Shown here: in pieces, positions 9,293-58,449 of the stretch
Position numbering within the stretch: the first letter of the stretch is position 1
Layout: each line of letters starts with the position of its first letter
DNA from: Parcubacteria group bacterium GW2011_GWA2_42_14
GTDB taxonomy: Bacteria; Patescibacteriota; Minisyncoccia; Sungbacterales; GWA2-42-14
Direction: 5' to 3'
DNA length: 64,000 nucleotides
Assembly: GCA_000998135.1 (NCBI GenBank)
Contig: LCCV01000002.1
Span: 29,421 to 93,420 of the forward strand
Made by a program: the position numbers and the translations under genes
The notes under the pieces: model-generated
Told to the model about the DNA's origin: nothing
What the model saw: only the letters and a program-made list of their open reading frames with translations
The model's database searches: none

Positions 9293-9498
9293 AATTTCAA
9301 TAGATTATCATATTATATAATAAATAGCAAGTTTTTGACTAGAAACTGTTAAATAATTGCCAAAAAGTTATTTCCTGAGCCCGTCGAAGGATAACTTTTT
9401 AGCTTATTAAGGTAAACCCTTCGACTCGCTTCGCTCGCTCAGGGAATAATTCAAAAGGCTCGACTATTACTAATATCTGTTGTATTCTAAAAAAATCT

Positions 9499-10587
9499 AT
9501 GAAAAAAGAAATAAAAATAGAACCCAATATTTGTAACGTCTGCCAAGAACCCAGGTTACAATATGCTTTCTCCGCCCACGATTATATCACGGACGAAAAT
9601 TTTGAGTTATGGCTATGTCCCGATTGCCAAGCCATGGCAACCATGCCGCGATTAAATGACGAGGAACTGCAAAAATATTATCAAGGCGTATATTATGGCA
9701 GAAGAAAATCATTCGTTGACCAATTTATTAATAACGAAAGGGTTTGGACCATTAAAAAACTTTACAAAACTTATCTCAAAAATTACTCTTTCGGTCATTC
9801 TGCCGCCAGAGGCGAGCCTCGCCTTCGGCGGGAGCGAGGCGAAGAATCTCATGATACTCTATCAAGCGATAAACCTGAGATCCTTCACTTCGTTCAGGAC
9901 GACAATATGTCGATTTTAGATATCGGCTGCGGGAACGGTTTATTTCTAAATGGCCTTAAAAAAATAGGATGGAAAATTGCCGGAACAGAACTCGCGCCGG
10001 AAAGCCATGTGCATCCTGATATATCGCCATTCGTCTGCAACAAGCCGGTTAACGAATGTACTTTTACCGGAGAATCATTTGACATCATTACCATGTGGCA
10101 TACATTGGAACATTTCATAAATCCGTCTCTGTATCTTCGTGATGCTAACAGAATTTTAAAAAGAAGCGGAGTTTTAATTATTGAAGTTCCCAACTTCAAA
10201 TCATGGCAATTTTTGATAACAGGCAAACACTGGTTTCCACTGGAAATTCCCCGACACCGCACACATTTTTCTCCCCAAGCCATTAAAATAATTTTGGAAA
10301 AAACCGAATTTCAGATAGTGCGGATATCCTACGGAAACTTTTTTTATGATGTTTTTGGGTTCACGCAAAGCATATTAAACTCCTTGTGCCGGCAAAAAAA
10401 TATCCTTTTTAATATCTTAAACGGAAAACTTTCTGCTTCTATCAACGGAGTACGAAGCGTATTTGATGTTTTTATAACAGTAGTACTCACTCCCCCGCTT
10501 TCAATTATCGGCATAATATTGTTTTTTATAGAAATCGCGACAAAACACGGAGGAACTATGCGGATTTATTCCAAAAAAACATCATAG
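9499..10587 (+). CDS. Class I SAM methyltransferase with N-terminal Zn-ribbon. Carries an in-frame repeat-derived insert.
   Basis: CxxC...CxxC N-terminus and motif I ILDIGCGNGLF. Nucleotides about 9797-9910 (peptide GHSAARGEPRLRRERGEESHDTLSSDKPEILHFVQDD) match repeat families found elsewhere in the window. Confidence 0.7.
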   Translation: MKKEIKIEPNICNVCQEPRLQYAFSAHDYITDENFELWLCPDCQAMATMPRLNDEELQKYYQGVYYGRRKSFVDQFINNERVWTIKKLYKTYLKNYSFGHSAARGEPRLRRERGEESHDTLSSDKPEILHFVQDDNMSILDIGCGNGLFLNGLKKIGWKIAGTELAPESHVHPDISPFVCNKPVNECTFTGESFDIITMWHTLEHFINPSLYLRDANRILKRSGVLIIEVPNFKSWQFLITGKHWFPLEIPRHRTHFSPQAIKIILEKTEFQIVRISYGNFFYDVFGFTQSILNSLCRQKNILFNILNGKLSASINGVRSVFDVFITVVLTPPLSIIGIILFFIEIATKHGGTMRIYSKKTS

Positions 10588-10640
10588 CAACACCGAGTGT
10601 TGCTAAACCCATTAAGCAACACTCAGTGTTGCTTACGGCT
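10588..10640. terminator. Two tandem perfect hairpins between convergent genes (candidate bidirectional terminator).
   Basis: agcaacaccgagtgttgct and agcaacactcagtgttgct each form 7-8 bp stems. There are no strong T-tracts. The same caacaccgagtg palindrome recurs inside CDS 35352..39356. Confidence 0.35.
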
Positions 10641-12221
10641 AATTAAAAATTTTATTTTAGAAAATACAAAAACTACTCCGGTAGCTACAAAAATGAAATA
10701 AAACGGCGCAAAAGGAACACGATAACGGGCGTTTAGGGCCGCTGAAACAGGCAAGGAAACCAAAACCGTTAAAAATATCAAAGCGATGAGAAAATAAGCC
10801 ATCGCTTTTTGGTTATAAACGCCGTTTCTAACTAAAACCCAAGCTCCCAAAACCGATAAAACCCAAAAAACCAACCAAACAACGCGCATGGCATAAGGTA
10901 TAAGATACTGCCCCTTAAGATACGGCAACATATCGCGCCAGGCCGATGGCCCTTTTTGGAGTAAAAGCAAAGATAGCGGTATTGGAGGGCGCTTGGCATC
11001 GGGCAATAAACGGGAATGATTCAAAATATAAAGCAAATCATCCTGTGTAAATAACGTCTGAACCGAATTCAATTGCACCAAAATAGTTTCTTTGGGATGC
11101 TCTTTTAATATTTCAATCGTGCGCTCTTTTAAAAGCGGAATAAATTTAACATCAAATAATTCATGCTCATCGGCGCGGGAAATATACCCTTCGTTTTTTA
11201 ACTGATTCATCAGGTTCTCCAAACTTTGAATATATGACTTCTGGCTGACTGTTGCATTAACCATGGCCGCCATTCTTGTATACATATTATACCAACCGAG
11301 CGTGGAAAGAGTAAATTGTCCGGAGACCTGTTTATTCCGGTACATCCAAGGAACGACCAAGGCCAAAGCTATAAATAAAAAACAAAGTGCCGGTGCCATC
11401 ATTCTGCCGCCAGAGGCGAGCCTCGCTTTCAGCGGGAGCAATGCTAAAAATCCGGCGTCCGTTGTCGCCCTGAACGCAATGAAGGGTCTAAATAATAAAT
11501 TAAAGACCCTTCGGGCTAAACCCTCAGGATGACGTACCGCGCCAGTTCCTTCGCTAACGCCCAAGATGACGCCGTTTCGACGAACCGAAGATATTACCAA
11601 AAAAATAAAAATAAGCGGAAACGCGTAATAAAAAAACGGGCGAGTTAAGGCGGCGAATCCCGACAAAAAACCTATAACGGCGGCTTTTTTAAAACTAGGC
11701 GTTTCAATATATTGATATATTAAAACAACAGCCAGGACCGTAATAAAAACAAAAATACTTTCGGTATTAAGGGTAAGAGTATGAACCGCTATGTGATAGT
11801 CAAAAACTGTTAAAAATCCCGCTATAGCAGATGTTTTTAAATTATCCGTAATCCTTAAGCATAACCAAAATATAAAAACCGGAACAAATGAATTTAAAAC
11901 GGCCTCAAACAAAGAAGCGGGCCAATAAACGCCGAATAAATAATAAAATAATGAAAGAAAAACAGGATAGCCGGGAGTGCGAAGGGTATGCGGTTCAAAA
12001 GGCAACGAATCGCTTAAAGAAAAACCGTTTCCAAGCGATAAATTCCTGGCCAAGGCCATATAATTATTGGCGTCAATCCAGGCCAAACCGCTCCATTCGC
12101 CTAAACGGAAAAATAAAATACCAAATATAAAAAGACGGACGCCAAGCGCCGTTATAAAAATGACCAGTGCGAGACGAAAATATTTTTTGTCAGAAAAAAG
12201 ATATGAAAAAAGTCCGTTCAC
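10623..12221 (-). CDS. Polytopic membrane glycosyltransferase, ArnT/PMT-like (GT39/GT83 family). Carries an in-frame repeat insert.
   Basis: N-terminal multi-TM region with GYPVFLSLFYYLFG-type loop typical of the lipid-carrier-dependent GT-C fold. Residues GTGAVRHPEGLARRV...LASGG are encoded by repeat sequence 11395-11560. Confidence 0.6.
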   Translation of the reverse strand: MNGLFSYLFSDKKYFRLALVIFITALGVRLFIFGILFFRLGEWSGLAWIDANNYMALARNLSLGNGFSLSDSLPFEPHTLRTPGYPVFLSLFYYLFGVYWPASLFEAVLNSFVPVFIFWLCLRITDNLKTSAIAGFLTVFDYHIAVHTLTLNTESIFVFITVLAVVLIYQYIETPSFKKAAVIGFLSGFAALTRPFFYYAFPLIFIFLVISSVRRNGVILGVSEGTGAVRHPEGLARRVFNLLFRPFIAFRATTDAGFLALLPLKARLASGGRMMAPALCFLFIALALVVPWMYRNKQVSGQFTLSTLGWYNMYTRMAAMVNATVSQKSYIQSLENLMNQLKNEGYISRADEHELFDVKFIPLLKERTIEILKEHPKETILVQLNSVQTLFTQDDLLYILNHSRLLPDAKRPPIPLSLLLLQKGPSAWRDMLPYLKGQYLIPYAMRVVWLVFWVLSVLGAWVLVRNGVYNQKAMAYFLIALIFLTVLVSLPVSAALNARYRVPFAPFYFIFVATGVVFVFSKIKFLISRKQH

Positions 12222-12332
12222 TCAAGCCGTTATTGTCCGAGCTTGTCGAGGACTTTACATTTTACATTAATGTTAACTTCTCGACTCGGCTCGAAGAATA
12301 ACCATATTACGCTCGTTTTCGCAGACAAACAG

Positions 12333-16843: not shown

Positions 16844-18331
16844 TTATATCAAGCCGCTGATTTTTTCAAAGATTCTATCAAAATTCCTGACGACATCAAA
16901 AATGGTATTGCCGAAAAGAATGATGAAAACTAAAAATAAAATTTTAAGATTTTTATATTGACCATTTTTAATAAATTTTATAGCTTCCATAATACCTACT
17001 CCGGCAAAAATCGCGAAAAAAGCGTAAGAAGGATAACGATAGCGAGTCTCAACCACAATAAAAACAACCGGCAAAACTACGGCGGCCAGAAACGCTAATA
17101 ACCACATCTTGTTTGTGGTGAAAAACGTGTATGGTAAATCCTTCGACTTCGCTTCGCTGCGCTCAGGAAATAATTTATTGCCTGAACCTGTCGAAGGCAT
17201 ACCTTTCTTTGAACTCCAGATTGCTTCTACAATTCCGTAGAAACCGAAGGTAAAAATAATTACCGACCATAAGGAGGAAAGCGACAAAACGACCGCCTGC
17301 CAAGGACTTCCAAAAAGATACGGCCACCAGCCGGTGGGACGCGCAAAACTAAAATACATGGAAATTCTGAAAAAAGTTATTTTTATGAATTCCAGCGGAT
17401 TAAAAAGTATGAAAATGATAGCTTCTTTTGCCGCCAAACGATCCCCGGTAACCATGTCATAATCATTATATTTAGCGGTAAATTGTATGCGCGAATCGTC
17501 AAGTTCTCCGGACGAGCCGGGGTGATTTCCGGATAAAAGGTCGTCCCCAAACGTTAAACTTGTCGGAATAAAAGCGCCATACACCTTGAAATTGCGGATT
17601 GTCCAAGGAGTCATCACCGCCAGAATGACCGCCGTAAAAATCGCCAAACTGATAAACAATTTCTTTTTGTAAAAAAAATAAATAAAGGGCAAAAAAATCA
17701 AAAGCAAAGGAGTTCTCACAAGAACAGACGCGGCAAAAACAAAACCGAGAAGCGCGGCCAATTTAATGCCCGATTTATCAAGTATGCGAAAAAAAATAAA
17801 AATGGATAACAGCATTAAAAAAATAGCGAGGGTTTCGGCAAGAAGCATGGAACTGCCGATTATTAAATCGGGGTAAAAACCGAATATAACAGCCGCAATT
17901 AAAGCGGCGGCACGCACGTTTAAGGTCGGACCTTCCGCGGAAGGTCCGACCTTTCGCATAATCAAAAAAACCAAAAGAACTGACAAAGCGTGAAATATCG
18001 CCTGCAAGAACCAAACTACCTCATAATGATGCCCAAAAATAAAATAAACCCCCACCAGAAAAAATTCATAGCCCGGGCCTACCCTGCCGATAGAATTATC
18101 TTTTTCAAACGGAAGGTCAAAATTTTGGCGATAACCATGACCATTTAATATATTCACGGCAATACGGTCATAAGCTCCGGCATCAACCGAAGGTTCAATC
18201 TGAAAATAAAAAGAATGGGTCAAAGACAGCAAAAAAGAGGCAAATACAATGCCCCAAAGCAACTTTTTCCAATTCGCATTAACAAAATTCAAAGCACAAA
18301 GCACCAAATCCCAAATAAATTCAAACTTCAA
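16844..18331 (-). CDS. Polytopic membrane glycosyltransferase, ArnT/PMT-like (GT39/GT83). Carries an in-frame repeat insert.
   Basis: N-terminal ...DAGAYDRIAVNILNGHGY... loop and many TM helices. Residues MPSTGSGNKLFPERSEAKSKDLPYT are encoded by palindromic repeat 17130-17215. The annotated N-terminus (MKFEFIWDLVL) lies inside the intergenic IR element 18291-18406, so the real start is probably downstream. Confidence 0.6.
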   Translation of the reverse strand: MKFEFIWDLVLCALNFVNANWKKLLWGIVFASFLLSLTHSFYFQIEPSVDAGAYDRIAVNILNGHGYRQNFDLPFEKDNSIGRVGPGYEFFLVGVYFIFGHHYEVVWFLQAIFHALSVLLVFLIMRKVGPSAEGPTLNVRAAALIAAVIFGFYPDLIIGSSMLLAETLAIFLMLLSIFIFFRILDKSGIKLAALLGFVFAASVLVRTPLLLIFLPFIYFFYKKKLFISLAIFTAVILAVMTPWTIRNFKVYGAFIPTSLTFGDDLLSGNHPGSSGELDDSRIQFTAKYNDYDMVTGDRLAAKEAIIFILFNPLEFIKITFFRISMYFSFARPTGWWPYLFGSPWQAVVLSLSSLWSVIIFTFGFYGIVEAIWSSKKGMPSTGSGNKLFPERSEAKSKDLPYTFFTTNKMWLLAFLAAVVLPVVFIVVETRYRYPSYAFFAIFAGVGIMEAIKFIKNGQYKNLKILFLVFIILFGNTIFDVVRNFDRIFEKISGLI

Positions 18332-18406
18332 AATTCAGATATTAAAACTTATGTATTTTAAGCATTTGGATTTTGATATTATTTGGGATTTGGGATTTTA
18401 AAATTG
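18291..18406. repeat. Intergenic inverted-repeat element (family ccaaatcccaaat...ttcaaaattcaa / ttgRattttgRtattatttgggatttg), copy 1 of 4.
   Basis: Other copies are at 22511-22666, 50333-50457 and 59438-59556. Each lies between the stop of one minus-strand gene and the start of the next. Confidence 0.6.
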
Positions 18407-18413
18407 TGATTTA

Positions 18414-19178: not shown

Positions 19179-19943
19179 TTATTTTTTAAATATAAACACC
19201 GTAATCACCCCTAATCTATTCAGAAACGGAATTTTTTCCATTACAGCATTAAAAATATTAGAAAAAACAGGAATATACTTGGGGAACGGCAAATGGTATG
19301 ACATTTGCCTTAAAGATAATCCTGAATCTCGGCAAATCTCAATTAGTTCCTTAATAGAAATCCTTTCGTGCGGGCCTTCGGGCATTTTTAATTTCAATTT
19401 TTCGGCTAAATCCAGAATCGGCTCCCATAAAGGATTGGCCATGGATACAATAACTTTTGTACTGTCGGAAGCAAGTTTTGCGATATTTCGCACACTCATT
19501 CTAACATCATCCAGATGCTCAATTACATCTGCCAAAATTATATAATCAAATTTTTCTTCGGTTCGAAAATCAGCCGCCGTTGATTGAAAAAACGTTAAAT
19601 TTTTAAAATTGGCATATTTTTCTTGCGCCCTTTTTATCATTTCTCCGCTTACATCAACGCCAATCCCCAATGACGGCCTAAGTTCGGCTAAAATTTCTCC
19701 GGTACCACAGCCAATTTCCAAAACCCTTGAACCAGCCGGAATAGAACTTTTATAAATTTTTTTGACGGCATCATAATAATACCAATTCTTCCTTTTCCAA
19801 TAGTCGTAAGAAGGGGCTATTTCGTCAAAATGTTTTTGTACTTCGTCCATGCCAATTTTCTCAGCGAGGCAAGCAAGATTGCTTGCCACAGCCGAGATGT
19901 TAGAAAATTGAGCAGTTTTGTTGCTAAAATTGACAATTTTCAA
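19179..19943 (-). CDS. Class I SAM methyltransferase (paralog of the N-terminal domain of 20040..21446).
   Basis: Motif I VLEIGCGTGEILAEL. The N-terminal YDYWKRKNWYYYD... segment is shared with the neighbouring fused gene. Confidence 0.7.
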   Translation of the reverse strand: MKIVNFSNKTAQFSNISAVASNLACLAEKIGMDEVQKHFDEIAPSYDYWKRKNWYYYDAVKKIYKSSIPAGSRVLEIGCGTGEILAELRPSLGIGVDVSGEMIKRAQEKYANFKNLTFFQSTAADFRTEEKFDYIILADVIEHLDDVRMSVRNIAKLASDSTKVIVSMANPLWEPILDLAEKLKLKMPEGPHERISIKELIEICRDSGLSLRQMSYHLPFPKYIPVFSNIFNAVMEKIPFLNRLGVITVFIFKK

Positions 19944-20029
19944 TTGTCATCCTGAACGAAGTGAAGGATCTATATATCTTTTGAGATTCTTCGCCTAGCT
20001 CAGAATGACAGCACGGCTGTCAATTTTAG
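19924..20029. mobile_element. About 105-bp MITE-like palindromic element with terminal inverted repeats (ctaaaattgacaa ... ttgtcaattttag).
   Basis: TIRs plus an internal inverted pair gtcatcctgaacgaagtgaaggatc / gattcttcgcctagctcagaatgac. The core recurs inverted inside CDS at 9877-9905 and partially at 52030-52075. Confidence 0.55.
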
Positions 20030-22481: not shown

Positions 22482-22662
22482 TTAATAAATCCTTAATCCA
22501 ATTCCAAAAAACCCCAAATTCAAAATCCCAAATTCCAAATATCAAAATTCAAATAATAAATACAAAATATATTACTGTTTGAATTTTGAAATTTTCCGCC
22601 GAAGGCGGATCCGCCTCTGGCGGAGAATTTATTTGGGATTTGGTGCTTTGGATTTTGAATTT

Positions 22663-23652
22663 TCAAACCAATCCCTTCAATCCGTTTTTCTTCATATCAC
22701 TATCCAGCATTTTTTTCACAAGCTCTTTAAATCTTACCTTCGGCTCCCAACCAAGTTCTTTTTTGGCTTTAGAATAATCGCCCTGCAATATATCGGCCTC
22801 GGTGGGTCGATAATGCTTTTCGTCAATCTCCACATATTTTTTCCAATCAAGGCCGGCAAGCCCGAATGCTTCTTCAACAAATTCTTTTACCGAGTGGGTT
22901 TCCCCCGTAGCCACTACAAAATCATCCGGACGAGAATGCTGCATCATGAGCCACATGGCTTCCACATAATCGGGGGCATAGCCCCAATCGCGCTTGGCAT
23001 CCATATTCCCCAAAATTAATTTATCTTTTTTCCCGGCAACAATATCCGCCACTCCTCTGGTGATTTTTCTGGTCACAAATGCTTCGCCCCTCCTCTCTGA
23101 TTCATGATTAAAAAGTATGCCGTTCACAATAAACATATTATAGGCCTCGCGGTAATTTTTAGAAATCCAGTAACCAAAAACCTTAGAAACGGCATAAGGA
23201 GAACGGGGATAAAACGGCGTTGTTTCTTTTTGGGGCACTTCCTGGGCCTTGCCGAACATTTCTGAAGAAGAAGCATTATAAAATTTAATAGAGTCCATCC
23301 CGGCATCTCTGATTGCCTCAAGTAATCGCAAAACCCCCAAACCGGTAACATTGGCCGTAAATTCCGGCGTATCAAAACTTAACCGCACATGGCTTTGCGC
23401 CCCCAAATGATACAATTCATCCGGCTTGACTCTCCGTATCAAATAATTTACGGAGCTTGCATCAGTCAAGTCCCCGTAATGCAGGAAAAAACGCTCATAT
23501 TTAGGATGCTTTTGCATATGGTCAATTCTTTCGGTATTGGTGGAACTGGAACGGCGTATAAGCCCATGAACTTCATAATCCTTGGAAAGCAAAAACTCGG
23601 CCAAATATGAGCCGTCTTGTCCGGTTATGCCTGTAATTAAGGCCTTCTTCAT
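22663..23652 (-). CDS. gmd: GDP-mannose 4,6-dehydratase.
   Basis: [43 protein letters not shown] is the canonical Gmd N-terminus. Confidence 0.9.
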
Positions 23653-35289: not shown

Positions 35290-35301
35290 TATAAAAATAT
35301 A

Positions 35302-35327
35302 AATTAATTAACGATCGTTAATTAATT
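35302..35327. promoter_or_regulatory. 26-bp palindromic operator-like motif AATTAATTAACGATCGTTAATTAATT, 13-38 bp upstream of the LTD-protein start.
   Basis: Perfect palindrome. Near-identical copies are at 57699-57724 and 58424-58449, each upstream of a minus-strand gene. Confidence 0.5.
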
Positions 35328-35351
35328 TTTCACTTTAAATATGGCCATATA

Positions 35352-38300
35352 CTACGGCAATAAATCCGGCGGAATGGTTTTTATGACATTGGAATCATCA
35401 TAAAAGTCAATGCCGCCGTTGTTTATGAGGTGATGCGAACTATCCACAGCCATGCCGACGCCGTTGTCGCGAAAAATCAAATTGCTTATAGTAGTGGTTG
35501 CGCTGCCGGAAATAACCAAAGCGTAATATTGCTTGCCGGGCAATAAATTGTCCCGAAAAATCGTATCCGTAACGGTGCTTGAGGCATTACTCGCGAGCCA
35601 AACGCCCTTAAACTTATTTTTTTCAATCACGGAATTTTTAATGGTAAGCGGCTCATTGCCGCCGGCCTTGATTCCGGCAAGATTATACCGCTCTTCTTCT
35701 CCTCCGGCGTATCTTATAACGGCGCCGTCAAAAACCGCTTCTCCAGAACCCCAAAAATCAATGCCCCGCCAATGCCCCAAAATCGGCTGGCTGGAAGTGG
35801 CGTCATTATTGGTATCCCCGCCGTATTCATCATCATAAAATGATGTAAAAACAACCGGCTCCTCGAGGGTGCCATTAGCCGAAAAAGCTCCGGCAATGGT
35901 CAAACCGGTATTAGGCATAAATTTAAACACCGCGCCCTTTTCCGCGGAAATATTTCCCGCAAACGTGTAATTTCCCCAATCAATAATATAAGGCAAGTCC
36001 TTGGCAAAAACATGATCATTGCCCGCGTTATTCCTGATAATAATTCCTTTAACGCCGGGGCTGTCGGAAATAACAGTGTTTCCTCCGAATAACGGCGGAG
36101 AACTTTCCGCAATGATAACATTTCCATTTTTATCAAAAGTGTTGTTGCGAACTTCTCCGCCATGTATGTCGGAGGAAAAAATTCCTCCGCCATTTTCCAA
36201 AAATGTATTATTTAAAACTTTTGGAGCAGAACCGGCTATTATCAATGCCTCAAGAGCGTTTTTATAAAATACGCTATTTTCTATGTTCGCATTGCAGTTT
36301 ATACAAGACAAACCCCTAAGCAAAGAGTGCTCAAGGCGTGAATTTTTAAACGAAAGAGCCGCGCTTGTGATATAAATCATGGCCCTTCTTTTAAACGGCA
36401 AATTATTATCCATATTTCCACCGTATCTGAAAAACGTGTTTAAAAATTCCGAACCGGAGCTTTCCAAATTAAAAGTGAATTGCCTCCAATTGCCTGCTTG
36501 AGGGCATATCGCGGTTGAAGAAGCGTTTAACGGGTCGCAAACGCCATCTTTATTGGTATCTCCGCCGTATTCATCATCATAAATGCCGGTAAAAACAATT
36601 GGCTCTTCGGGCGCGCCTCGCGAAAAGATTTTTCCGTAAACATTAATAATTGCCCAATAATCATTAGGCGGCATAATCTTTATAACCACGCCCGGCTCAA
36701 TATTAAGAACAGCGCCGTCTCTTATAGTTAAACCCGCTCTTCGGATAAGGTAAGGAGAATTTTCTTTGGTCAGAATTCTATCACCAGTCAAATTTCCGTC
36801 AACGGCAATCAAATAATTAACGCTGTTTCTGGCTTTGGGAGTACCATAAACCGGCCCGTCCTCGGCGTTTTTGTTAATATTGACTATTTCCTCTTCAAAA
36901 TAAGTCCCCCAGTTTGCCTGCGTTTCACCCGGAGCGTCCGGGTCAATTCTTTCCATAGAAAATCTTGCTAACAAAATACCTGCGCACCAGCCGGTAGGGC
37001 GCGAGCGATCCCATGGACAAAGTTCCGGGGTTCTATCAATGGTTCGGCTTGGCTCACCACTGGCGGTCGTAGAACCTTTTTCCAGTTTTAAAATCATTCC
37101 GTTGTCATCAAGCCCCGCGCCGAACGAAGCGATAAAATCGGCCTTAATAATTGATACGGCGTTATCATCATCACGCTCAATCAAATAATAACTTTTGGGC
37201 GCGATTTTACCGGAAAGATTGATTATTATTTTTGGCTCGGGCTCGCCGGGCTTAAAAAATTTCAACTGCCAACCGGTTAAATCAATTTCGGCTTCAGAAC
37301 GGCTCTTTAACTCAATCCATTCATCTTCACTGGTGGTTGCCGAATTGCCGGTTCCCGCCCAGGCGATTTCGTTTATAATGACCGGCATTTGATTTATTTC
37401 TAAGATTTTTACAATTTCAGCCGATTCATTTCCGGTTTTATCTTTGGCTTTAGCGCGAAATTCATAAAAAGTGTTTGGGGAAGCAGTAAAAATAAATGAT
37501 GTCGCAAACGGCGCGGTTGACGACGCCGTTGAGGTCGAACCTCCCATGGGAGGTTCGACCTCTATAAATTTCAGAAAATCGTCGCAATCTTGCCACGGCT
37601 GGCTTGTTTTTTGACGATAAGCGCAATTTAGGAAAAAGGACGCAATATCTTCGCTATTGGACTCCAAAAAAATCGTAAGAGTGGTTGTAGCAATAACGCA
37701 ATCAGTTTGAGAAAAACTGTCAGAACATTCCTGAATGTTCAAAGAAATGTCCGGCGGAGTAGTATCGGTCGTTGTAGTAGCAACACCGAGTGCTGCTGAC
37801 GCTTCAGCATCACTCGGTGTTGAAGCTTGAACCGGCGCAACATATTCCCCGCCCGCGCCAGCTATAAAATCACCCAAAGCATAAGGAGGAGGCGGAGGCG
37901 GAGTTGAAGTAGCAACACCGAGTGTTGGCATTGGTAGAAAAACACTCGGTGTTGAAGTGGCTGCAGGAGCCAAATCTAAAGTTTCAGAATCTATGGAGGT
38001 TGAACCTCCATAGATTTGAGGAACGGGCTCAATATCGGAGGTTTCCGAAATGGTTCGACTCGACTCACCATAAAAAGAGCCGAAATTCGCGATTTCGTCA
38101 TCAGCAACACCGAGTGCTGCCGACGCATCGGCATCACTCGGTGTTGACAACTCCGTTGTCGACTCCGTACTCGTAATAATCGCCGCTGTGTAAGAAGTGT
38201 TACTGTCTGAGCTTGCTTGCCCGTCCAAGTTTTCCGCAGAAAAGTTGGTCAGGGTCGAGAACAAACTACTTGTCCAATTCCACGCTTTCTGCCACCACGA

Positions 38301-39356
38301 GCGGTTTTTAAACCATAATTCCTTTGTTTGCTTTTCCTTTTCCACTTCGTCAAAAAAGAGCTTAACCACCCCGGCGCCGTTAATAACCGCCTGTTTTGAC
38401 AGCAAATTCCAGTAGTCGGTGAGGATGAGGTTGTCGTCGTCAGCAATAGAAAACTTGTTTTTGTTGTCTTTAGGATTCAACAAGTAATACCATCCAAAAG
38501 ATACATCCGACATTACAATATGATATTTTTTATCACTCAAAATACGATAACCAAATAATACGGATAACCCATTTGATAACTGTTCTTCTTCATAAAAACT
38601 TACATCTGGTTTAATAAATAAATCTGAAAAAATAGTATCTTTACTAAAAAAATTATTATTTGAATAGTTTGCCGTTGCATCAAAATAACTACTGATATTT
38701 GATAAAACATATGGTTTTTTACCGCTTTCTATAAGCTCGGCAACCGTATTTAAATTTTCCGGAGAAAATTTTCTGGTCCAATCTTCATAAGGACTTGAGT
38801 TTAAAACTTGAGAATGTTCAAACAGGCCAGCATGACCATCATTACGGGTATGTTCAGGCACAGTTGCGTCTTCCAAAAGATGTAATGTATGCCCCAATGA
38901 CTCCAATCCCCTATTTTTATCTACCCAGGCATAATCGTAAATCGCCCTTTCCCATGAATAATCCGAAGGCGATGAAAATAGGTCAAAAATTGAACCATAA
39001 GTTTTGTCGCGAAACACTCCGTCTTCCTGGGCTTGAGCCAAGGTGTTTTGCGACCAGTCTTTTGAGCTTTCCCAGCTCTCGCCAAGTATAGTAAGACCGC
39101 GATTATAAATCGGGTCGTAAAAATGGTGAAGCCATCTTGTCTCTTCGTCTTCATCAATGCTTCCATTCATTAAAATCGCAATCTCTTCGCTATTTAAGGC
39201 CTTTTCCTGATAATTGTGATTAAAAAAACGGCCGATTTCTTTGGTTAAAGCCGGATGAGTGGTTTGATCGTCATAGGCAAAAACAAGAATGGGCAGAAAT
39301 AAAACAAATACTGCCGCCCCAATCGCTGATATTGTGTGGGAATACTTCGATTGCAT
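35352..39356 (-). CDS. Very large (1334 aa) secreted surface protein with a lamin-tail domain, right-handed beta-helix/pectate-lyase-like repeats and Ala/Ser-rich repeated linkers.
   Basis: N-terminal signal peptide. LTD motif VIINEIAWAGTG...DEWIELKS...DLTGWQLK. Repeated NNTF-type beta-helix segments. Three repeats of PSDA[ED]ASAALGVA. Confidence 0.65.
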   Translation of the reverse strand: MQSKYSHTISAIGAAVFVLFLPILVFAYDDQTTHPALTKEIGRFFNHNYQEKALNSEEIAILMNGSIDEDEETRWLHHFYDPIYNRGLTILGESWESSKDWSQNTLAQAQEDGVFRDKTYGSIFDLFSSPSDYSWERAIYDYAWVDKNRGLESLGHTLHLLEDATVPEHTRNDGHAGLFEHSQVLNSSPYEDWTRKFSPENLNTVAELIESGKKPYVLSNISSYFDATANYSNNNFFSKDTIFSDLFIKPDVSFYEEEQLSNGLSVLFGYRILSDKKYHIVMSDVSFGWYYLLNPKDNKNKFSIADDDNLILTDYWNLLSKQAVINGAGVVKLFFDEVEKEKQTKELWFKNRSWWQKAWNWTSSLFSTLTNFSAENLDGQASSDSNTSYTAAIITSTESTTELSTPSDADASAALGVADDEIANFGSFYGESSRTISETSDIEPVPQIYGGSTSIDSETLDLAPAATSTPSVFLPMPTLGVATSTPPPPPPYALGDFIAGAGGEYVAPVQASTPSDAEASAALGVATTTTDTTPPDISLNIQECSDSFSQTDCVIATTTLTIFLESNSEDIASFFLNCAYRQKTSQPWQDCDDFLKFIEVEPPMGGSTSTASSTAPFATSFIFTASPNTFYEFRAKAKDKTGNESAEIVKILEINQMPVIINEIAWAGTGNSATTSEDEWIELKSRSEAEIDLTGWQLKFFKPGEPEPKIIINLSGKIAPKSYYLIERDDDNAVSIIKADFIASFGAGLDDNGMILKLEKGSTTASGEPSRTIDRTPELCPWDRSRPTGWCAGILLARFSMERIDPDAPGETQANWGTYFEEEIVNINKNAEDGPVYGTPKARNSVNYLIAVDGNLTGDRILTKENSPYLIRRAGLTIRDGAVLNIEPGVVIKIMPPNDYWAIINVYGKIFSRGAPEEPIVFTGIYDDEYGGDTNKDGVCDPLNASSTAICPQAGNWRQFTFNLESSGSEFLNTFFRYGGNMDNNLPFKRRAMIYITSAALSFKNSRLEHSLLRGLSCINCNANIENSVFYKNALEALIIAGSAPKVLNNTFLENGGGIFSSDIHGGEVRNNTFDKNGNVIIAESSPPLFGGNTVISDSPGVKGIIIRNNAGNDHVFAKDLPYIIDWGNYTFAGNISAEKGAVFKFMPNTGLTIAGAFSANGTLEEPVVFTSFYDDEYGGDTNNDATSSQPILGHWRGIDFWGSGEAVFDGAVIRYAGGEEERYNLAGIKAGGNEPLTIKNSVIEKNKFKGVWLASNASSTVTDTIFRDNLLPGKQYYALVISGSATTTISNLIFRDNGVGMAVDSSHHLINNGGIDFYDDSNVIKTIPPDLLP

Positions 39357-39976: not shown

Positions 39977-40217
39977 AATATCAAATTATTATAATTGACT
40001 CAATTACTCTAAGTTACTCTGATTAAAACCAAAAGTCAAATGTCTTGTGTCTTGTGTAACTGTTGAATAATTGCCAAAAAGTTACCTCCTGAACTTTTCG
40101 CAAGACAACTTTTTGGCTTTAAATAAGGTAACCCCTCGACTCTGCTCGGGGGGTAAGAGGATTATTAATAACCTCTGTGGATAACTTTCGGTTTATTTTC
40201 GGTATTAAGGTGTTAAT

Positions 40218-43180: not shown

Positions 43181-44041
43181 TTATTTTTTTAGCGCGTCAA
43201 TCTCTGCTGCGACTGCCTTATTATGGGGGTCTAAAGCAAGGACTTTTTGGTAATACTCAAGGGCTTTGGGGAAATTGCCCTGTTCTTTATAAAAACGGGC
43301 GAGGTAGCTTAAAAGGGTTTGGTTGTCGGGGTTGGCGGCGAGACCGGATTCAATTATTTTTATAATTTTGTTGCTTCTCGACTCGCCTGCGGGTTCGCTC
43401 GAAGAATATAAATCGGCAAGGGCTGTATATGGATAAATATCGCCCGGAGCATTCTCTATGGCCTTCTTATAGCTTAATTCGGCCTTAGGATAGTCCTTAA
43501 GATATAAAGCGTATAATCCACCCAGATTAGCAAAAGAGGTGGAATTTTGGGGCCTGATGAGTGAGGCATACTCCCAGGCGTCCCGCGCTCCCAAATAATC
43601 GCCGAAAAATTTCTTAATTACCCCGGCTCTTAACCAATTATCAAGATTATCCGGGCTTTCGGAAACGAATTTGGCAATGTCCAAAAGTTCATTTCTTAGC
43701 TTGGTTTTGACATCTTCAGGATAAGCTAAAACGACGCTTTTATCTTCGTTTACGGTTCCGATTGGGGCGCCATTGTATTGAGGAAGCGTAGGTAATTCTG
43801 TTGGTTTTACAACTTCACCGGACAAGTCACGACCTTCTTTGCGGACAAGGTCGGGACTTGATTGACCGACAAGACCCGGTCTTTTTTCCTCAAGGTCGGG
43901 CCTTAAAACGTCACCGAAAAAATAATAGCCGGAGGCGATAAAGGCCAAAAATAATAAAATAACGAGGTCGCGGAGGAGTAGATTTTTTGTTGAATTGGAC
44001 ATGTTTTTATTAATAGGTATGACTTCGACGAAATCAGGCAA
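43181..44041 (-). CDS. TPR-repeat protein with N-terminal TM anchor.
   Basis: N-terminal hydrophobic helix. C-terminal TPR-like repeats (WEYASLIRPQNSTSFANLGGLYALYLKDYPKAELSYKKAIE...ALEYYQKVLALDPHNKAV). Confidence 0.6.
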   Translation of the reverse strand: MPDFVEVIPINKNMSNSTKNLLLRDLVILLFLAFIASGYYFFGDVLRPDLEEKRPGLVGQSSPDLVRKEGRDLSGEVVKPTELPTLPQYNGAPIGTVNEDKSVVLAYPEDVKTKLRNELLDIAKFVSESPDNLDNWLRAGVIKKFFGDYLGARDAWEYASLIRPQNSTSFANLGGLYALYLKDYPKAELSYKKAIENAPGDIYPYTALADLYSSSEPAGESRSNKIIKIIESGLAANPDNQTLLSYLARFYKEQGNFPKALEYYQKVLALDPHNKAVAAEIDALKK

Positions 44042-44384
44042 TAAAATGATACTCCCTAAGCGAGCCCTGCGAGTCGAAGGGTTTCCTTGAATGTATGCCT
44101 TCGACCCGCTTCGCCAAAGCTTCAGCGAGGCGAGTCAGCGAGGCGAGCAAGCTCGAAGAATAAGCAGAGATTACTTCGTCGGTACGCCTCCTCGCAATGA
44201 CGCCGGAATAGTACCTTATAAAAATTATCATTAATAAAGAGATAAATCAATGGTCGTCATCATATATTGCCTGAACTTGTTGAAGGCATACCTTAATGGT
44301 AAACCCTTCGACTCGGCTCAGGGAATAATATTTATAAACAGACCGTCCGAAAACTATAGAACTTCAAAAAACTCGAACAATAAT

Positions 44385-44416
44385 AAAACCAGCCCCGAAA
44401 GGGGGCTGGTTTTATT
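44385..44416 (-). terminator. Rho-independent terminator downstream of the 1205-aa surface-protein gene.
   Basis: ccagcccc-gaaa-gggggctgg makes an 8-9 bp GC-rich stem, flanked by an A-tract on + and a T-tract on - (ggttttattattgttcgagtttttt in the gene sense). It lies 45 bp past the stop. Confidence 0.6.
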
Positions 44417-48079: not shown

Positions 48080-49453
48080 ATTTTTTATCTAAGTTAATTA
48101 TAACTTTTCCAAAAATTTTTTCCGTGGTTCGATAAACTCACCACGAGAAGAAAAAGATGGAAAAGAAATTTACAATCACGATTCATAACCTCTTCGACTT
48201 TACCCGATATTCCAAAGGAAAATTTAGGGTAAAAAAGATTTAAATCGTGAATAACAAAATCAAATTAATAATAATCAATGTTTTGGAGTCAAGTCACCCT
48301 CATGCGTCTTGAATCATGAATCTTGAAACTTGAAACATGAATTACGAAACATGAGATGGTCCGCTCCATCTTGTCATATTTAAATATTTTAATATTTAAA
48401 TATTCAAAGCGGGAGGGTCGACCGGACTTTAAAACTCCTAAATCAAAAACAAATTAAGAATTTACTAATTTTTTCTTTTGCATCCGAACCTAAACCAAAA
48501 CCATCATCAAACAGAAAAGTAATTTTTAATTATCAAGGTTCTTGCCGTTCAGAATCATGAAACATGAAACATGAAATTTCAATCGTTTACAACCAAATTT
48601 CGAAATTAAAGCAACCAAGTTATACTATCAATTCCGAAATTTAATTGCAAATTATATTGTGAATAATGGTGGTTCGATAAACTTACCATAAATTCGGTTT
48701 GCTCACCGCAAGTGTTAAATAACTACAAACAAGCCAAAAATTGGCTCATTTAATTTAAAAAAATTAAGTCATAACTATCTTAAATTATTATATATCTCCG
48801 CAAATGGTTCAACTCTGCTTACCACAAGTATATTATAAACCCACTAAAAATCACTTGCAAATAGGCATTGTGGATAAGTGCTACAGCTTCAAAACCAAAA
48901 TATAGTACTTATATTGCTTAATTTTCAAGCATTTTTGCCATTTCGGCAATAACAGCAATTTAACGGCAAAAAACCAACTTATCTGATATCTGATATTATT
49001 ATTATAAATCATATAAAAAAGCAAATAAACTCTGTTGTGGATAAGTTAATTCTATACAAAAATGGCATAAAAAACCCCATTTGCAACTATCCTTTTTACC
49101 TTTCACGGCATTCAAAGCTCATAGGAGCAGATTTCACGCGAATATTAACACTGATTAACGCGGAAATAAATAACCGGGAATGGCCAAAATCTATCTTAAA
49201 GCCTTAAAAAATAGCTTATTTTATTAAAATTAACCTAATTATTCTGATAAATTCACCTAATTCCTAATTACCTAATTCACCTAATAAAATTTCTAATGCA
49301 CTAATACTTAATTCTTAATTTAAAATTTTGGAATTTGGTTATTTTATTAGAAATTAGGTGAATTAGACAATTAGAAATTCTTTAAGCAAACTCAAAAATC
49401 AGCAAAATTTATCCTTCGACAAGCTCAGGCAATAACCATTTTTGATATGGGTT
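48080..49453. other. 1.37-kb gene-free AT-rich region with short tandem repeats, two perfect DnaA-box nonamers and two covarying hairpins.
   Basis: No ORF of 60 aa or more on either strand. tgtggataa occurs at 48869-48877 and 49036-49044. ggttcgataaact loops sit at about 48125-48150 and 48668-48695 with different stems. catgaaa heptad repeats are present. Confidence 0.5.
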
Positions 49454-50323: not shown

Positions 50324-50520
50324 TTAAATCTAATAAATCCAAATCTCAAAATCCCAAATAAATTCAAACTTCAAAATTCAAGTATAAAAACTTAATTCTT
50401 TAACAATTTGGATTTTGGTATTATTTGGGATTTGATGCTTTGGATTTTGAATTTTTAAACCCGGTTTGTCGCTTATAAACGACACCTGAAATGTCGCTTA
50501 TAATAATGTCGTTTATAAAT

Positions 50521-51867: not shown

Positions 51868-52076
51868 ACTTTCTTATCCTTTTAGGTTTTCAAAAAACCG
51901 TATTTTATCGGTTGCACATCTTAGAATCTATGTCAAGACCTCAAAAACCCCCATCGGTTTACAATGGGAATTTTTTTCTTTCTTTTACTTATTTTTAATT
52001 AAAAGAGATACTTCATGTAGTTTACCTTGAGATTCTTCACAAAGTTAAGAATGACAATCAAAAGGATCAAAATGAC

Positions 52077-57614: not shown

Positions 57615-57698
57615 AGATACTCTTCAAACATAAGATTGAGAAATAAAAAAGTCAAACACCTAACCCAAAAGAAAAGTGTTTTAAACATTTTTTAAAAA

Positions 57699-57724
57699 AA
57701 TTAATTGACGATCGTTAATTAATT
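57699..57724. promoter_or_regulatory. 26-bp palindromic operator-like motif AATTAATTGACGATCGTTAATTAATT.
   Basis: Copy 2 of the motif family (see 35302 and 58424). Confidence 0.5.
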
Positions 57725-57779
57725 TTTAAATATCTCCATATACATATACCGATTAACTCACACCATCAAACCGCTATTA

Positions 57780-58406: not shown

Positions 58407-58423
58407 TAATAAGCATTATAAAA

Positions 58424-58449
58424 AATTAAAAGACGATCGTCAATTAATT
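58424..58449. promoter_or_regulatory. 26-bp palindromic operator-like motif AATTAAAAGACGATCGTCAATTAATT.
   Basis: Copy 3 of the motif family. Confidence 0.5.

What the first reader, a model, noticed from the sequence alone, without database searches (positions are those of the whole stretch)
17130..17215. Another GT39/83-like gene with an in-frame copy of the cctgaac/cgaagg palindromic repeat
ggtaaatccttcgacttcgcttcgctgcgctcaggaaataatttattgcctgaacctgtcgaaggcatacc lies inside ORF 16844..18331 and encodes ...MPSTGSGNKLFPERSEAKSKDLPYT. Sibling copies of this family are intergenic at 9355-9445, 40070-40165 (the leader of the LexA-MTase gene), 44265-44345, and partially at 12225-12300.
Basis: seen in the sequence. 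Interest (0 to 1): 0.5.

Follow-up and report, generated by a model that had tools for sequence, protein, structure and literature searches.

The report
Hairpin repeat inside a glycosyltransferase gene
A 71-base palindromic repeat of a small dispersed hairpin family sits inside a membrane glycosyltransferase gene of a Patescibacteria (CPR) bacterium and is read in frame as a floppy 24-residue loop. Selfish DNA tolerated inside genes is a known phenomenon, but this repeat family appears undescribed and occurs in many bacterial phyla.

Summary
Window 17133-17203 holds a 71-nt imperfect palindrome made of two inverted copies of a 30-41-nt hairpin unit (consensus TTATTnCCTGAGC-loop-GTCGAAGGnTTACC). 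The window holds thirteen clear units: six inverted pairs and one singleton. The core pattern is expected 0 times by chance, and the 4-bp stem covaries.

The copy at 17133-17203 is read in frame as residues 377-400 (GMPSTGSGNKLFPERSEAKSKDLP) of an otherwise intact GT-C (PMT_2/ArnT-like) membrane glycosyltransferase. 84 of 88 homologues lack any insert at this loop. In the AlphaFold model the insert is the only segment with pLDDT below 50, and it lies between two helices.

The four closest relatives all carry extra DNA in this loop. The extra DNA is of at least three kinds, and one kind frameshifts the gene.

The same unit occurs in about 85 loci from more than 10 phyla. Some copies are in frame in housekeeping genes (trigger factor, PheS, Fpg, GrpE). 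No transposase lies nearby, and there is no Rfam or literature match.

Best reading: a REP/REPIN- or RPE-like selfish palindromic repeat tolerated in a permissive loop, moved by an unknown enzyme. It is ordinary in kind. The family itself is the more interesting part.

The parts
17133..17203 (.). The finding: a 71-nt inverted dimer of two hairpin units with the GGTA.../...TACC ends outside ('HH' heterodimer). On the - strand it is read in frame as residues G377-P400 (GMPSTGSGNKLFPERSEAKSKDLP).
   Evidence: Sequence. Folds with z -3.1 to -4.0 on both strands as DNA and RNA. Translation. Open in 4 of 6 frames.
17133..17173 (-). Long-loop hairpin unit. On the - strand it reads TTATTTCCTGAGCGCAGCGAAGCGAAGTCGAAGGATTTACC. 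The stem is TCCT/AGGA and the loop contains GCGAAGC.
   Evidence: Alignment A3. Covariance model 37.9 bits, E 1e-8 (a training copy).
17174..17203 (+). Short-loop hairpin unit TTTATTGCCTGAACCTGTCGAAGGCATACC, with stem GCCT/AGGC.
   Evidence: Alignment A3. Covariance model 44.4 bits (a training copy). 93% identical over 30 nt to 44265-44294.
16844..18331 (-). Host gene: a 495-aa GT-C fold membrane glycosyltransferase (PMT_2/ArnT-like). It is intact and keeps all 48 invariant family residues.
17922..17953 (.). A second, unrelated perfect 32-nt palindrome in the same gene, AAGGTCGGACCTTCCGCGGAAGGTCCGACCTT (residues K127-L137). It lies in another length-variable loop and is kept palindromic in orthologues through paired changes.
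   Evidence: unique in the window, 0 expected. (z -4.7 and -5.5). (orthologue DNA). (pLDDT 58 for residues 131-140).
9364..9453 (.). Sibling dimer with tags inside ('TT'). Intergenic, between divergent genes.
12226..12305 (.). Degenerate sibling dimer ('TT'). Its stems have changed compensatorily (GTCC/GGAC and CTTC/GAAG). Intergenic.
40078..40160 (.). Sibling dimer ('TT'), 58 nt upstream of the LexA-DNA methylase fusion gene (40218-41687).
44012..44125 (.). Cluster of three alternating units. The first two (44012-44090) form an 'HH' dimer with the same arrangement as the genic copy. A partial third unit lies at 44096-44125.
44260..44332 (.). Sibling dimer ('TT'), the closest relative of the genic short-loop unit.
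49403..49439 (-). Single unit lying 15 nt beyond the stop codon (49454) of the nucleotidyltransferase gene. It shows no significant fold on its own (z -0.3).
43365..43413 (-). Degenerate unit (TTCTTCGAGC...GAGTCGAGAAG) inside the TPR-protein ORF 43181-44041, on the sense strand.
   Evidence: Covariance model 20.2 bits, E 0.006, not a training copy. Sequence. Pfam TPR.

Best explanation
The element is a copy of a small, non-autonomous palindromic repeat of the REP/REPIN kind. It behaves like the Rickettsia palindromic elements.

The basic unit is a 30-41-nt hairpin. It has a 4-5-bp stem whose sequence is free but must pair. Inside the stem are the conserved bases GA(G/A)C...G(T)CGA. Outside it are unpaired conserved flanks: TTATT on one side and (T)TTACC on the other. 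Units mostly sit in inverted pairs that fold into one long hairpin.

One such pair entered the coding sequence of a GT-C glycosyltransferase at a short, poorly conserved loop between two helices near the C-terminus. It landed in a frame without stop codons, in a loop that tolerates extra length. The gene therefore stayed functional and now makes a protein with about 24 extra, disordered, hydrophilic residues.

The insert most likely does nothing useful for the protein. It is selfish or neutral DNA that selection failed to remove.

Shown here: the anatomy, the family, stem covariation, in-frame reading, absence from most homologues, placement in a low-confidence loop, different inserts at the same loop in close relatives (one of them disruptive), and the same unit in frame in other genes of other phyla.

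Inferred: that the unit moves by transposition or hairpin-guided strand transfer, catalysed in trans by an enzyme encoded elsewhere. A Y1/HUH-type enzyme like the RAYTs that move REPs is the obvious candidate, but I have no evidence for it. The neutrality of the insert is also inferred.
For: Family and structure:
- There are 13 units in the window, against 0 expected for the core patterns.
- The stem pairs in 91% of cells, with 14 double-sided changes against 3.9 in shuffles (0 of 500 shuffles reach this). Pairing collapses to 28-56% when partners are slid by 1-3 columns.
- Dimers fold with z -2.8 to -4.0. A lone unit does not.

It is an insertion:
- The loop is 62 aa against a median of 35 in 88 homologues. 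Only the four closest relatives exceed 45 aa.

The site is permissive:
- AlphaFold gives mean pLDDT 83 and pTM 0.87.
- The only stretch below 50 is residues 378-401, which is the insert, between helices 345-376 and 399-423.
- All 48 invariant residues of the family are kept.

Turnover at this loop:
- L004 carries a related dimer.
- L001 carries a different nested hairpin (GTCATTCTGAGC[CCTTCGACCCCGCTCAGG..]GCGAAGAATC).
- L005 carries an unrelated insert of about 150 nt with 14-nt terminal inverted repeats. It shifts the frame, and the C-terminal part continues in frame +1.
- L006 and 84 other homologues have nothing there.

Survivorship: the genic dimer is open in 4 of 6 frames, whereas intergenic dimers are open in 0-2 of 6.

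Generality:
- The unit CCTGAGC-N2-20-GTCGAAGG-N-TTTACC is found in 97 loci of GTDB genomes. I estimate about 5 by chance.
- About 11 of these loci are ordinary or ambiguous coding matches that I set aside. The other 86 come from more than 10 phyla.
- 28 of those 86 have a further unit within 120 nt, against 3 of 86 control windows.
- The unit lies in frame inside trigger factor (L013, L062), PheS (L066), Fpg (L073) and at the GrpE N-terminus (L030).

Location: the loci are mostly between convergent (18) or unidirectional (26) genes and rarely between divergent genes (6). There is no strand bias relative to transcription (16 sense, 10 antisense). Published REPs are placed the same way (PMC3733652).

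Precedent: intragenic REP dimers encoding 20-30 aa, and heterodimers whose partners differ in loop length, are described in PMC3733652. In-frame RPE insertions are described in PMC10969869.
Against: - No transposase of any kind occurs among the 51 window ORFs of 90 aa or more. No family is enriched among 142 ORFs next to units in other genomes. Mobility therefore rests only on presence/absence patterns.
- No target-site duplication or clean empty site could be defined, because every close relative has something in the loop.
- The unit lacks the GTAG or CGTC tag, and its stem is shorter than in described REPs.
- Near-identical units in many phyla fit poorly with lineage-specific REP/RAYT co-evolution (PMC3116915).
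- The related dimer in L004 (64% protein identity) keeps its stem through one compensatory change and one wobble change. The second palindrome in the same gene is kept perfect through three paired changes. Something, either selection or arm-to-arm correction, preserves pairing inside coding DNA. 'Purely neutral' may therefore be too simple.
Confidence: 0.7

Rival explanations
1. The hairpin is kept because it works in the mRNA. A stable stem-loop inside the coding region, placed just after a transmembrane helix, would slow ribosomes, protect the message or mark it for processing. It might, for example, give time for membrane insertion.
For: - The sense-strand RNA fold is -27.8 kcal/mol, z -3.5.
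- The second palindrome in the same gene also follows a helix. It is preserved as a palindrome in three orthologues through paired substitutions, with one U.G wobble on the sense strand in L005.
- Among 91 units from other phyla, the base two positions before the stem is G in 46 cases, opposite a T. That pair is acceptable in RNA.
Against: - The element folds equally well on the antisense strand and as DNA.
- Units show no orientation bias relative to transcription: 16 sense against 10 antisense between unidirectional genes.
- Close orthologues have different sequences at the same loop, and most homologues have none.
- Quasi-palindrome correction by template switching can produce paired changes without selection. 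This point rests on established knowledge and was not tested here.
Confidence: 0.12
2. The inserted peptide was co-opted: the extra hydrophilic loop gives the glycosyltransferase a new interaction or regulatory site.
For: - The reading frame has been kept open.
- A related peptide (SGSNLFSERSGAESKGLHY) is present in a 64%-identical homologue.
- RPE inserts in Rickettsia have been discussed as a possible source of new protein parts (PMC10969869).
Against: - pLDDT is below 50 throughout the insert.
- The closer relatives P0002 and P0004 have other sequences there.
- The peptide is simply the translation of the DNA repeat.
- A search with the peptide found no other proteins carrying it.
Confidence: 0.05
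3. The insert is an assembly artefact or marks a dying gene. Either repeats caused a chimeric join, or the ORF is a pseudogene that merely remains open.
For: - A public contig of the same population ends at window position 12374, about 70 nt from the repeat at 12226-12305. Repeats may therefore break assemblies here.
- The L005 orthologue is frameshifted at this loop.
Against: - Both flanks of the insert belong to the same gene, in the same frame, and align to homologues along their full length.
- A 47.5-kb JGI contig is 100% identical over 15,958 nt, including the insert.
- Gene order matches the related contig L001.
- All invariant residues are intact, and the predicted fold is confident.
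Confidence: 0.03

Closest known systems
REP elements and their inverted dimers (BIMEs, REPINs), thought to be moved by RAYT tyrosine transposases (PMC3733652, PMC3116915)
   Same: - A short hairpin unit with conserved unpaired bases at its foot.
- Units mostly in inverted pairs, in both HH and TT forms, that fold into one long hairpin.
- Partners that differ in loop length, as in enterobacterial GTAG-3 heterodimers.
- Clusters of alternating units.
- Location mainly between convergent or unidirectional genes.
- Occasional intragenic dimers that add 20-30 residues.
   Different: - The tag is GGTAA/GGTAT, not GTAG or CGTC.
- The Watson-Crick stem is only 4-5 bp, against 5-13 bp, followed by conserved GA/GA and GC bases.
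- No RAYT gene was seen.
- Nearly the same unit occurs in more than 10 phyla, whereas REP families are usually specific to a species or genus and co-evolve with their own RAYT.
Rickettsia palindromic elements (RPE) (PMC10969869; also discussed in PMC3733652)
   Same: - A palindromic repeat inserted in frame in unrelated protein-coding genes as well as between genes.
- The added peptide sits where the protein fold tolerates it.
- No transposase of its own.
   Different: - RPEs are about 100-150 bp, belong to Rickettsia and encode a conserved peptide.
- This dimer is 71 nt, built from a 30-41-nt unit.
- The host is a Patescibacteria bacterium.
- I did not test sequence similarity to RPEs.
Bacterial MITEs (PMC10969869)
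   Same: Small, non-coding, inverted-repeat structure, dispersed copies, and in-frame fusions with host ORFs.
   Different: - No target-site duplication is visible.
- No parent insertion sequence shares these ends. The IS5-like element next to the L004 orthologue has unrelated terminal repeats.
- By contrast, the L005 insert at the same loop does look like a classical MITE, with 14-nt TIRs flanked by TAA.
Small dispersed repeats (SDR) of cyanobacteria (named in PMC3116915; details from my own recollection of Elhai et al. 2008, not checked here)
   Same: Very small hairpin-forming repeats that appear nested inside other repeats and inside genes.
   Different: I compared neither sequences nor hosts. 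This is a lead only.

Membership tests
REP / REPIN (GTAG- or CGTC-tagged) | Short palindromic unit (20-40 bp) forming a stem-loop, with a stem of 5-13 bp | tested here: inconclusive
   The unit is 30-41 nt and has a covarying stem. However, only 4-5 Watson-Crick pairs precede the conserved GA/GA and GC bases. A lone unit shows no significant fold (z -0.3).
REP / REPIN (GTAG- or CGTC-tagged) | Unpaired terminal GTAG (or GYAG/GTRG/GTMG/GTGG) or CGTC tag | tested here: not met
   The foot of the unit reads GGTAAA, GGTATG or GGTAAC. The fourth tag base is A or T, never G, and there is no CGTC. The definition is from PMC3733652.
REP / REPIN (GTAG- or CGTC-tagged) | Units organised as inverted doublets that fold into a hairpin | tested here: met
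   12 of the 13 clear units lie in six inverted pairs (4 TT, 2 HH). Five of the six pairs fold with z -2.8 to -4.0. The degenerate pair at 44012-44090 does not (z +0.6).
REP / REPIN (GTAG- or CGTC-tagged) | Mostly extragenic, between convergent or unidirectional genes | tested here: met
   In the window, 6 of 8 sites are intergenic. In other genomes there are 18 convergent, 26 unidirectional and 6 divergent sites.
REP / REPIN (GTAG- or CGTC-tagged) | A RAYT (Y1 transposase) gene in the same genome, flanked by the repeats | tested here: inconclusive
   None occurs among the 51 window ORFs or among 142 ORFs next to units elsewhere. Only 64 kb of this genome, and 8-kb pieces of the others, could be read.
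Rickettsia palindromic elements | Palindromic repeat inserted in frame in protein-coding genes at positions compatible with the fold | tested here: met
   for this gene. for trigger factor, PheS, Fpg and GrpE in other genomes.
Rickettsia palindromic elements | Element of about 100-150 bp belonging to one of the RPE sequence families of Rickettsia | tested here: not met
   The element is 71 nt and the host is a Patescibacteria bacterium, judged from the source names of homologues. Sequence comparison with RPE consensus sequences was not possible.
MITE | Terminal inverted repeats plus a target-site duplication, with ends shared with an autonomous insertion sequence | tested here: not met
   The ends are inverted repeats. 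No duplication flanks 17133-17203 (AAA|...|ATA), and no insertion sequence with these ends was found.
Rfam RNA families | Match to any of 4227 covariance models | tested here: not met
   No hit overlaps any unit at the gathering threshold or at E up to 10.
GT-C glycosyltransferase, PMT_2/ArnT type (host gene) | Pfam PMT_2 (PF13231) match | tested here: inconclusive
   E 8e-5 and 23.3 bits, against a cut-off of 26.1. Most homologues carry PF13231 or PF02366 in the precomputed hits.
GT-C glycosyltransferase, PMT_2/ArnT type (host gene) | GT-C membrane fold | tested here: met
   The model has pTM 0.87. Foldseek probability is 1.0 to STT3, PglB, ArnT (5f15, 5ezm) and Pmt4, with TM-score about 0.4.
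GT-C glycosyltransferase, PMT_2/ArnT type (host gene) | Conserved acidic residues in the first loop after helix 1 | tested here: met
   D50 is invariant and D55 nearly invariant in alignment A1. Their catalytic role is inferred from knowledge of the family.
GT-C glycosyltransferase, PMT_2/ArnT type (host gene) | Assignment to CAZy GT39 as opposed to GT83 | not testable with these tools
   No CAZy models are available here, and source names differ (GT39, ArnT).

The most novel reading that the evidence does not exclude
The unit itself may be an undescribed, pan-bacterial miniature element. It consists of a stem of free sequence, the conserved bases CTGAGC...G(T)CGAAG and a TTTACC foot.

Nearly the same 25-40 nt are found from Patescibacteria to Bacteroidota, Proteobacteria, Planctomycetota, Chloroflexi, Desulfobacterota, Omnitrophota, Verrucomicrobiota and Cyanobacteria. 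They occur as singletons, inverted pairs, 23-25-nt tandem arrays, nested in the loops of larger hairpins, and in frame in housekeeping genes.

Such a distribution would require one of two things. Either a widespread trans-acting enzyme, not yet linked to it, recognises the conserved loop and foot. Or a universal host factor or structural property selects for the motif.

The preservation of pairing inside coding DNA, seen in both palindromes of this gene, would then reflect an active process rather than chance.
Probability: 0.25. Interest if true: 0.7.

Novelty: new member of a known kind. Interest (0 to 1): 0.42.

Why it matters
For this gene, the finding explains a 24-residue oddity. Annotators and modellers should treat residues 377-400 as repeat-derived loop, not as a family feature.

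More broadly, it shows that reduced Patescibacteria genomes carry REP-like selfish hairpins. These land in frame in membrane glycosyltransferases: two of the four GT-C genes in this window carry in-frame palindromic inserts (16844-18331 holds two, 10623-12221 one composite), a TPR gene carries a degenerate unit, and a distant homologue (P0082) has an insert of its own. The inserts turn over quickly between close relatives.

The wider point is that the same hairpin unit is shared by many phyla without a known transposase. If that holds up, it offers a concrete handle on how very small palindromic repeats spread, which is still unresolved even for classical REPs.

Tried and rejected
- Rfam at the gathering threshold and at E up to 10: nothing overlaps the units.
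- Literature search by DNA words and by translated peptides (CTGAGCTTGTCGAAGG etc.; LSLSKG, PELVEG, FAQNDK etc.): no relevant paper.
- Plasmid and phage collections with the 88-nt element: two marginal Hymenobacter plasmid hits and no phage hit. IMG/VR pattern scan: 1 locus. Plasmids and phages therefore do not look like carriers.
- Metagenome scan for the short-loop subtype (GCCTGAAC-N1-4-GTYGAAGGCATACC): 5 hits, all in unrelated higher-GC contigs and none from this organism.
- Pfam scan of 142 ORFs next to units in other genomes, looking for a shared transposase: no family occurs in more than 2 of them.
- The IS5-like transposase beside the L004 orthologue: its terminal repeats (TTAGACCCGTTGC...) are unrelated to the unit.
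- tRNA scan of the window: none.
- Ideas considered from the sequence and dropped:
  - Integron attC sites: the R'/R'' boxes GTTRRRY/RYYYAAC are absent.
  - K-turn or box C/D-like RNA: tandem GA pairs are present, but there is no 3-nt bulge and no C-box.
  - Intrinsic terminators: no T-run after most copies, and true terminators lie separately, for example at 44388-44415.
- The resemblance of the TTTACC foot to the TTAC target of IS608 comes from memory only. I kept it as a lead and did not test it.
Full report
**1. Observation**

The quoted sequence is present at the stated place. I refine the element to window 17133-17203 (71 nt). It lies inside ORF 16844..18331 on the minus strand (495 aa) and is read there as ...SSKKGMPSTGSGNKLFPERSEAKSKDLPYTFF....

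There are more: 44012-44125, 49403-49439 and a degenerate copy at 43365-43413.

Chance does not explain them:
- The two core patterns occur 5 and 3 times, against 0.00 expected in shuffles.
- A short-word BLAST of the element against the window gives E 3e-7 and 2e-5 for the best siblings.

**2. Anatomy**

The repeat is not one palindrome. It is a pair of inverted copies of a smaller unit.

Aligning 13 units (alignment A3) gives the consensus TTATTnCCTGAGC-(2 to 16 nt)-GTCGAAGGnTTACCTTT. The block GTCGA and the bases C..G.A..C of CCTGAGC are invariant or nearly so.

The four bases nCCT pair with AGGn'. This stem changes by paired substitutions: TCCT/AGGA, CCCT/AGGG, GCCT/AGGC, GTCC/GGAC, CTTC/GAAG and CCCC/GGGG. 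Quantitatively:
- 91% of cells are paired.
- There are 14 double-sided changes, against 3.9 in shuffles (0 of 500 shuffles reach this).
- Pairing falls to 28-56% when partners are slid by 1-3 columns.

Units come in a short-loop form (CCTGAAC-yt-GTCGAAGG) and a long-loop form whose loop contains GCGAAGC. Each pair joins one of each.

Pairs exist in two arrangements. I take the GGTA/TACC end as the 'tag', following the usage of Di Nocera et al. (PMC3733652).
- Copies at 9364, 12226, 40078 and 44260 have tags inside (TT).
- The genic copy and 44012-44090 have tags outside (HH).

Five of the six pairs, covering both arrangements, fold into one long imperfect hairpin on either strand, as DNA or RNA, with z between -2.8 and -4.0. 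The exception is the degenerate HH pair at 44012-44090 (z +0.6). The lone unit at 49403 does not fold significantly.

A covariance model built from the 13 units scores them at 31-46 bits, as expected by construction. It finds one further degenerate unit inside a TPR gene.

**3. The host gene**

The ORF is a GT-C membrane glycosyltransferase of the PMT_2/ArnT type.
- Pfam PMT_2 matches at E 8e-5, just below the cut-off.
- 88 homologues come mostly from Patescibacteria. Many are named GT39 or ArnT by their sources, and most carry PF13231/PF02366.
- The AlphaFold model is confident (mean pLDDT 83, pTM 0.87). It matches STT3/PglB, ArnT and Pmt4 at Foldseek probability 1.0.
- All 48 invariant columns of the alignment are kept, so the gene looks functional.

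The gene sits in a large envelope-glycosylation cluster that contains four such GT-C genes.

**4. The insert in the protein**

The element encodes G377-P400. The loop that holds it is 62 aa long, against a median of 35 in 88 homologues. Only the four closest relatives exceed 45 aa.

In the model, the only stretch with pLDDT below 50 is 378-401, between helices 345-376 and 399-423. The loop flanks are rich in lysine, which suggests a cytoplasmic loop by the positive-inside rule. This is an inference, and my crude hydropathy scan does not settle the topology.

**5. The same loop in close relatives**

I fetched the DNA of the four nearest homologues.
- L004 (64% protein identity) has a related HH dimer. 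It has the same left junction and a long-loop unit whose stem has changed by one compensatory pair and one wobble.
- L001 (73%) has a different nested hairpin: GTCATTCTGAGC[CCTTCGACCCCGCTCAGGATAAAC]TTCGCGAAGAATC. It still contains a unit-like core.
- L005 (84%) has an unrelated insert of about 150 nt, with 14-nt terminal inverted repeats flanked by TAA. It shifts the reading frame. The C-terminal part of the protein continues in frame +1, after stops.
- L006 (49%) and all the other homologues have no insert.

The loop therefore accumulates palindromic DNA, the content turns over quickly, and not every event preserves the gene.

In agreement with survivorship, the genic dimer is open in 4 of 6 frames, whereas intergenic dimers are open in 0-2.

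Intergenic hairpins also differ completely between the window and the syntenic contig L001, although the genes are 75-87% identical.

**6. Beyond this genome**

An exact-pattern scan of one genome per GTDB species for the long-loop unit (CCTGAGC-N2-20-GTCGAAGG-N-TTTACC) returned 97 loci. My estimate from pattern length and database size is about 5 by chance.

About 11 of the loci are ordinary or ambiguous coding matches that I set aside. These include OmpA-like VEGFTD, a GroEL and Vibrio genes.

The rest come from Pedobacter, Flavobacterium, Maribacter, Polaromonas, Pirellulales and other Planctomycetota, Chloroflexi, Desulfobacteraceae, Omnitrophota, Verrucomicrobiota, Acidobacteriota, a cyanobacterium and several Patescibacteria.

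Their properties:
- The base before CCT pairs with the base after AGG in 84 of 91 units.
- 28 of 86 loci have another unit within 120 nt, against 3 of 86 control windows. Many form 23-25-nt tandem arrays or inverted pairs.
- They lie mainly between convergent (18) or unidirectional (26) genes rather than divergent ones (6), with no orientation bias.
- Units lie in frame inside real genes: trigger factor in a gammaproteobacterium and in a Staskawiczbacteria MAG, PheS in a Saccharibacteria MAG, Fpg in a gammaproteobacterium, and the N-terminus of GrpE.
- No protein family is shared by the neighbouring ORFs.
- The unit is essentially absent from plasmid, phage and viral collections.

**7. How it most likely works**

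Shown:
- A dispersed family of hairpin units with a covarying stem and a conserved core.
- Organisation in inverted pairs.
- One pair inside a coding loop that most homologues lack and that the fold tolerates.
- Rapid turnover at that loop, including a disruptive event.
- The same behaviour of the unit in other genes and phyla.

Inferred:
- The pair arrived by a DNA-level insertion catalysed in trans.
- It persists because it is in frame, free of stops and in a permissive loop.
- It is neutral or nearly so for the enzyme.

The enzyme is unknown. By analogy with REPs and RAYTs (PMC3116915), a hairpin-recognising Y1/HUH enzyme is the natural candidate. I have no evidence for one: none occurs in 51 window ORFs or in 142 neighbouring ORFs elsewhere.

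I put this reading at 0.7.

**8. Rivals**

- *Function of the stem-loop in the mRNA (0.12).* It gains some support from the second palindrome of the same gene (17922-17953). That palindrome is perfect in the window, and perfect again in L001 with three paired substitutions. In L005 it carries one U.G wobble on the sense strand. However, the main element folds equally well on both strands, units show no transcription-strand bias, and template-switch correction of quasi-palindromes could produce paired changes without selection.
- *A co-opted peptide (0.05).* This is unlikely given the disorder and the different sequences in closer relatives.
- *Artefact or pseudogene (0.03).* This is unlikely because a 47.5-kb public contig is identical over 16 kb including the insert, and the gene is complete.

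**9. Comparison with known families**

The element works like intragenic REP dimers and like RPEs. Di Nocera et al. describe HH and TT dimers, heterodimers that differ in loop length, clusters, and intragenic dimers that add 20-30 residues (PMC3733652). RPEs are the classic case of in-frame palindromic insertions (PMC10969869).

Membership is a separate question:
- The GTAG/CGTC tag is not met (GGTAA/GGTAT).
- The stem is shorter than described.
- A RAYT could not be found in the DNA I could read.
- The element is neither of RPE size nor from the RPE host.
- No target duplication or parent insertion sequence supports a classical MITE.
- No Rfam family matches.
- Searches of the paper library by sequence or peptide found nothing.

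I therefore file it as a new member of the known kind 'small palindromic dispersed repeats that can sit in frame in genes', not as a member of any named family.

**10. Verdict**

The in-frame insertion itself is ordinary biology: selfish DNA in a permissive loop.

The less ordinary points are the very wide phylogenetic spread of an almost identical unit without a visible transposase, and the maintenance of pairing within coding DNA.

Interest is 0.42. The most novel reading not excluded, an undescribed pan-bacterial mini-element or structural motif, has probability about 0.25 and would deserve about 0.7.

Noticed in passing
window 17922-17953; L001, L005 orthologous positions: A perfect 32-nt palindrome (AAGGTCGGACCTTCCGCGGAAGGTCCGACCTT) lies in another loop of the same GT gene. 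It is perfect again in L001 with three paired substitutions (AAGATCGGATCTCCCGCGGGAGATCCGATCTT). In L005 it carries one T.G wobble. Pairing is therefore preserved inside coding DNA across orthologues.
   Followed up: partly
loci L007-L103 (GTDB genomes): The hairpin unit CCTGAGC-loop-GTCGAAGG-n-TTTACC occurs in more than 10 bacterial phyla. It is often in 23-25-nt tandem arrays (L099, L036, L021) or nested in the loop of larger hairpins (the Pirellulales loci). In three Chloroflexi loci (L015, L031, L095) it follows directly after a tRNA 3' end.
   Followed up: partly
window 11395-11495 (inside ORF 10623-12221, -): A second GT-C (PMT_2) gene carries an in-frame composite of related hairpins. 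One is a copy of the 9795-9848 repeat, at 11399-11452. The other is cgccCTGAACGCAATGAAGggtc, at 11466-11488. Together they read LFRPFIAFRATTDAGFLALLPLKARLASGGRMMA.
   Followed up: partly
window 9795-9906, 19943-20010, 52027-52056: A related hairpin family of the type GTCATyCTGAryNNNGyGAAGrATC lies in 5' leaders and intergenic regions. It shares the CTGA...GAAG core with the unit studied here. L001 has this type at the GT loop.
   Followed up: partly
L005 1990-2170: The closest orthologue (84% identity) has a different insert of about 150 nt at the same loop. It has 14-nt terminal inverted repeats (CCCCGTTAGAAGTC...GACTTCTAACGGGG) flanked by TAA, followed by AAACGCAAAC-type repeats like those at window 14787, 28340 and 54776. 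The gene is frameshifted there.
   Followed up: partly
L110 1501-2925 (P0082), loop 1: A distant homologue (37% identity) has a 19-aa palindromic insert (…SSPYEGSPEGRESNRFDKLITS…) in the first cytoplasmic-type loop. This is an independent case in the same protein family.
   Followed up: partly
window 37547-38147 (inside ORF 35352-39356, -): Three copies of a 45-nt palindrome (AGCAACACCGAGTGCTGC...GCATCACTCGGTGTTGA) and two of GGAGGTTSRACCTC lie within a 1334-aa beta-helix/LTD surface-protein ORF.
   Followed up: no
window 35298-35330, 57696-57728, 58421-58453: A 30-nt AT-rich perfect palindrome (AAATTAATTrACGATCGTyAATTAATTT) occurs three times. Two copies flank a PaaX/Cas2-like regulator gene (57780-58406). 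It looks like an operator site.
   Followed up: no
window 18284-18412, 22509-22669, 50323-50461, 59431-59561: An AT-rich repeat family built of AAATCCCAAAT-like words forms inverted pairs in several intergenic regions.
   Followed up: no
window 40218-41687 (+): A single ORF fuses a complete LexA (DNA-binding plus S24 peptidase domains) to an N6/N4 DNA methyltransferase domain. A TGTGGATAA (DnaA-box-like) word lies in its leader, at about 40163.
   Followed up: no
window 60712-60851 (-): A SAM-I riboswitch (63.6 bits) lies upstream of the S-adenosylmethionine synthetase gene (59554-60627).
   Followed up: no
window 12374 / L111 end: A public JGI contig, 100% identical to the window over the 15,958 nt that could be compared, ends at 12374. 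That is about 70 nt from the repeat pair at 12226-12305, so these repeats may break short-read assemblies.
   Followed up: partly
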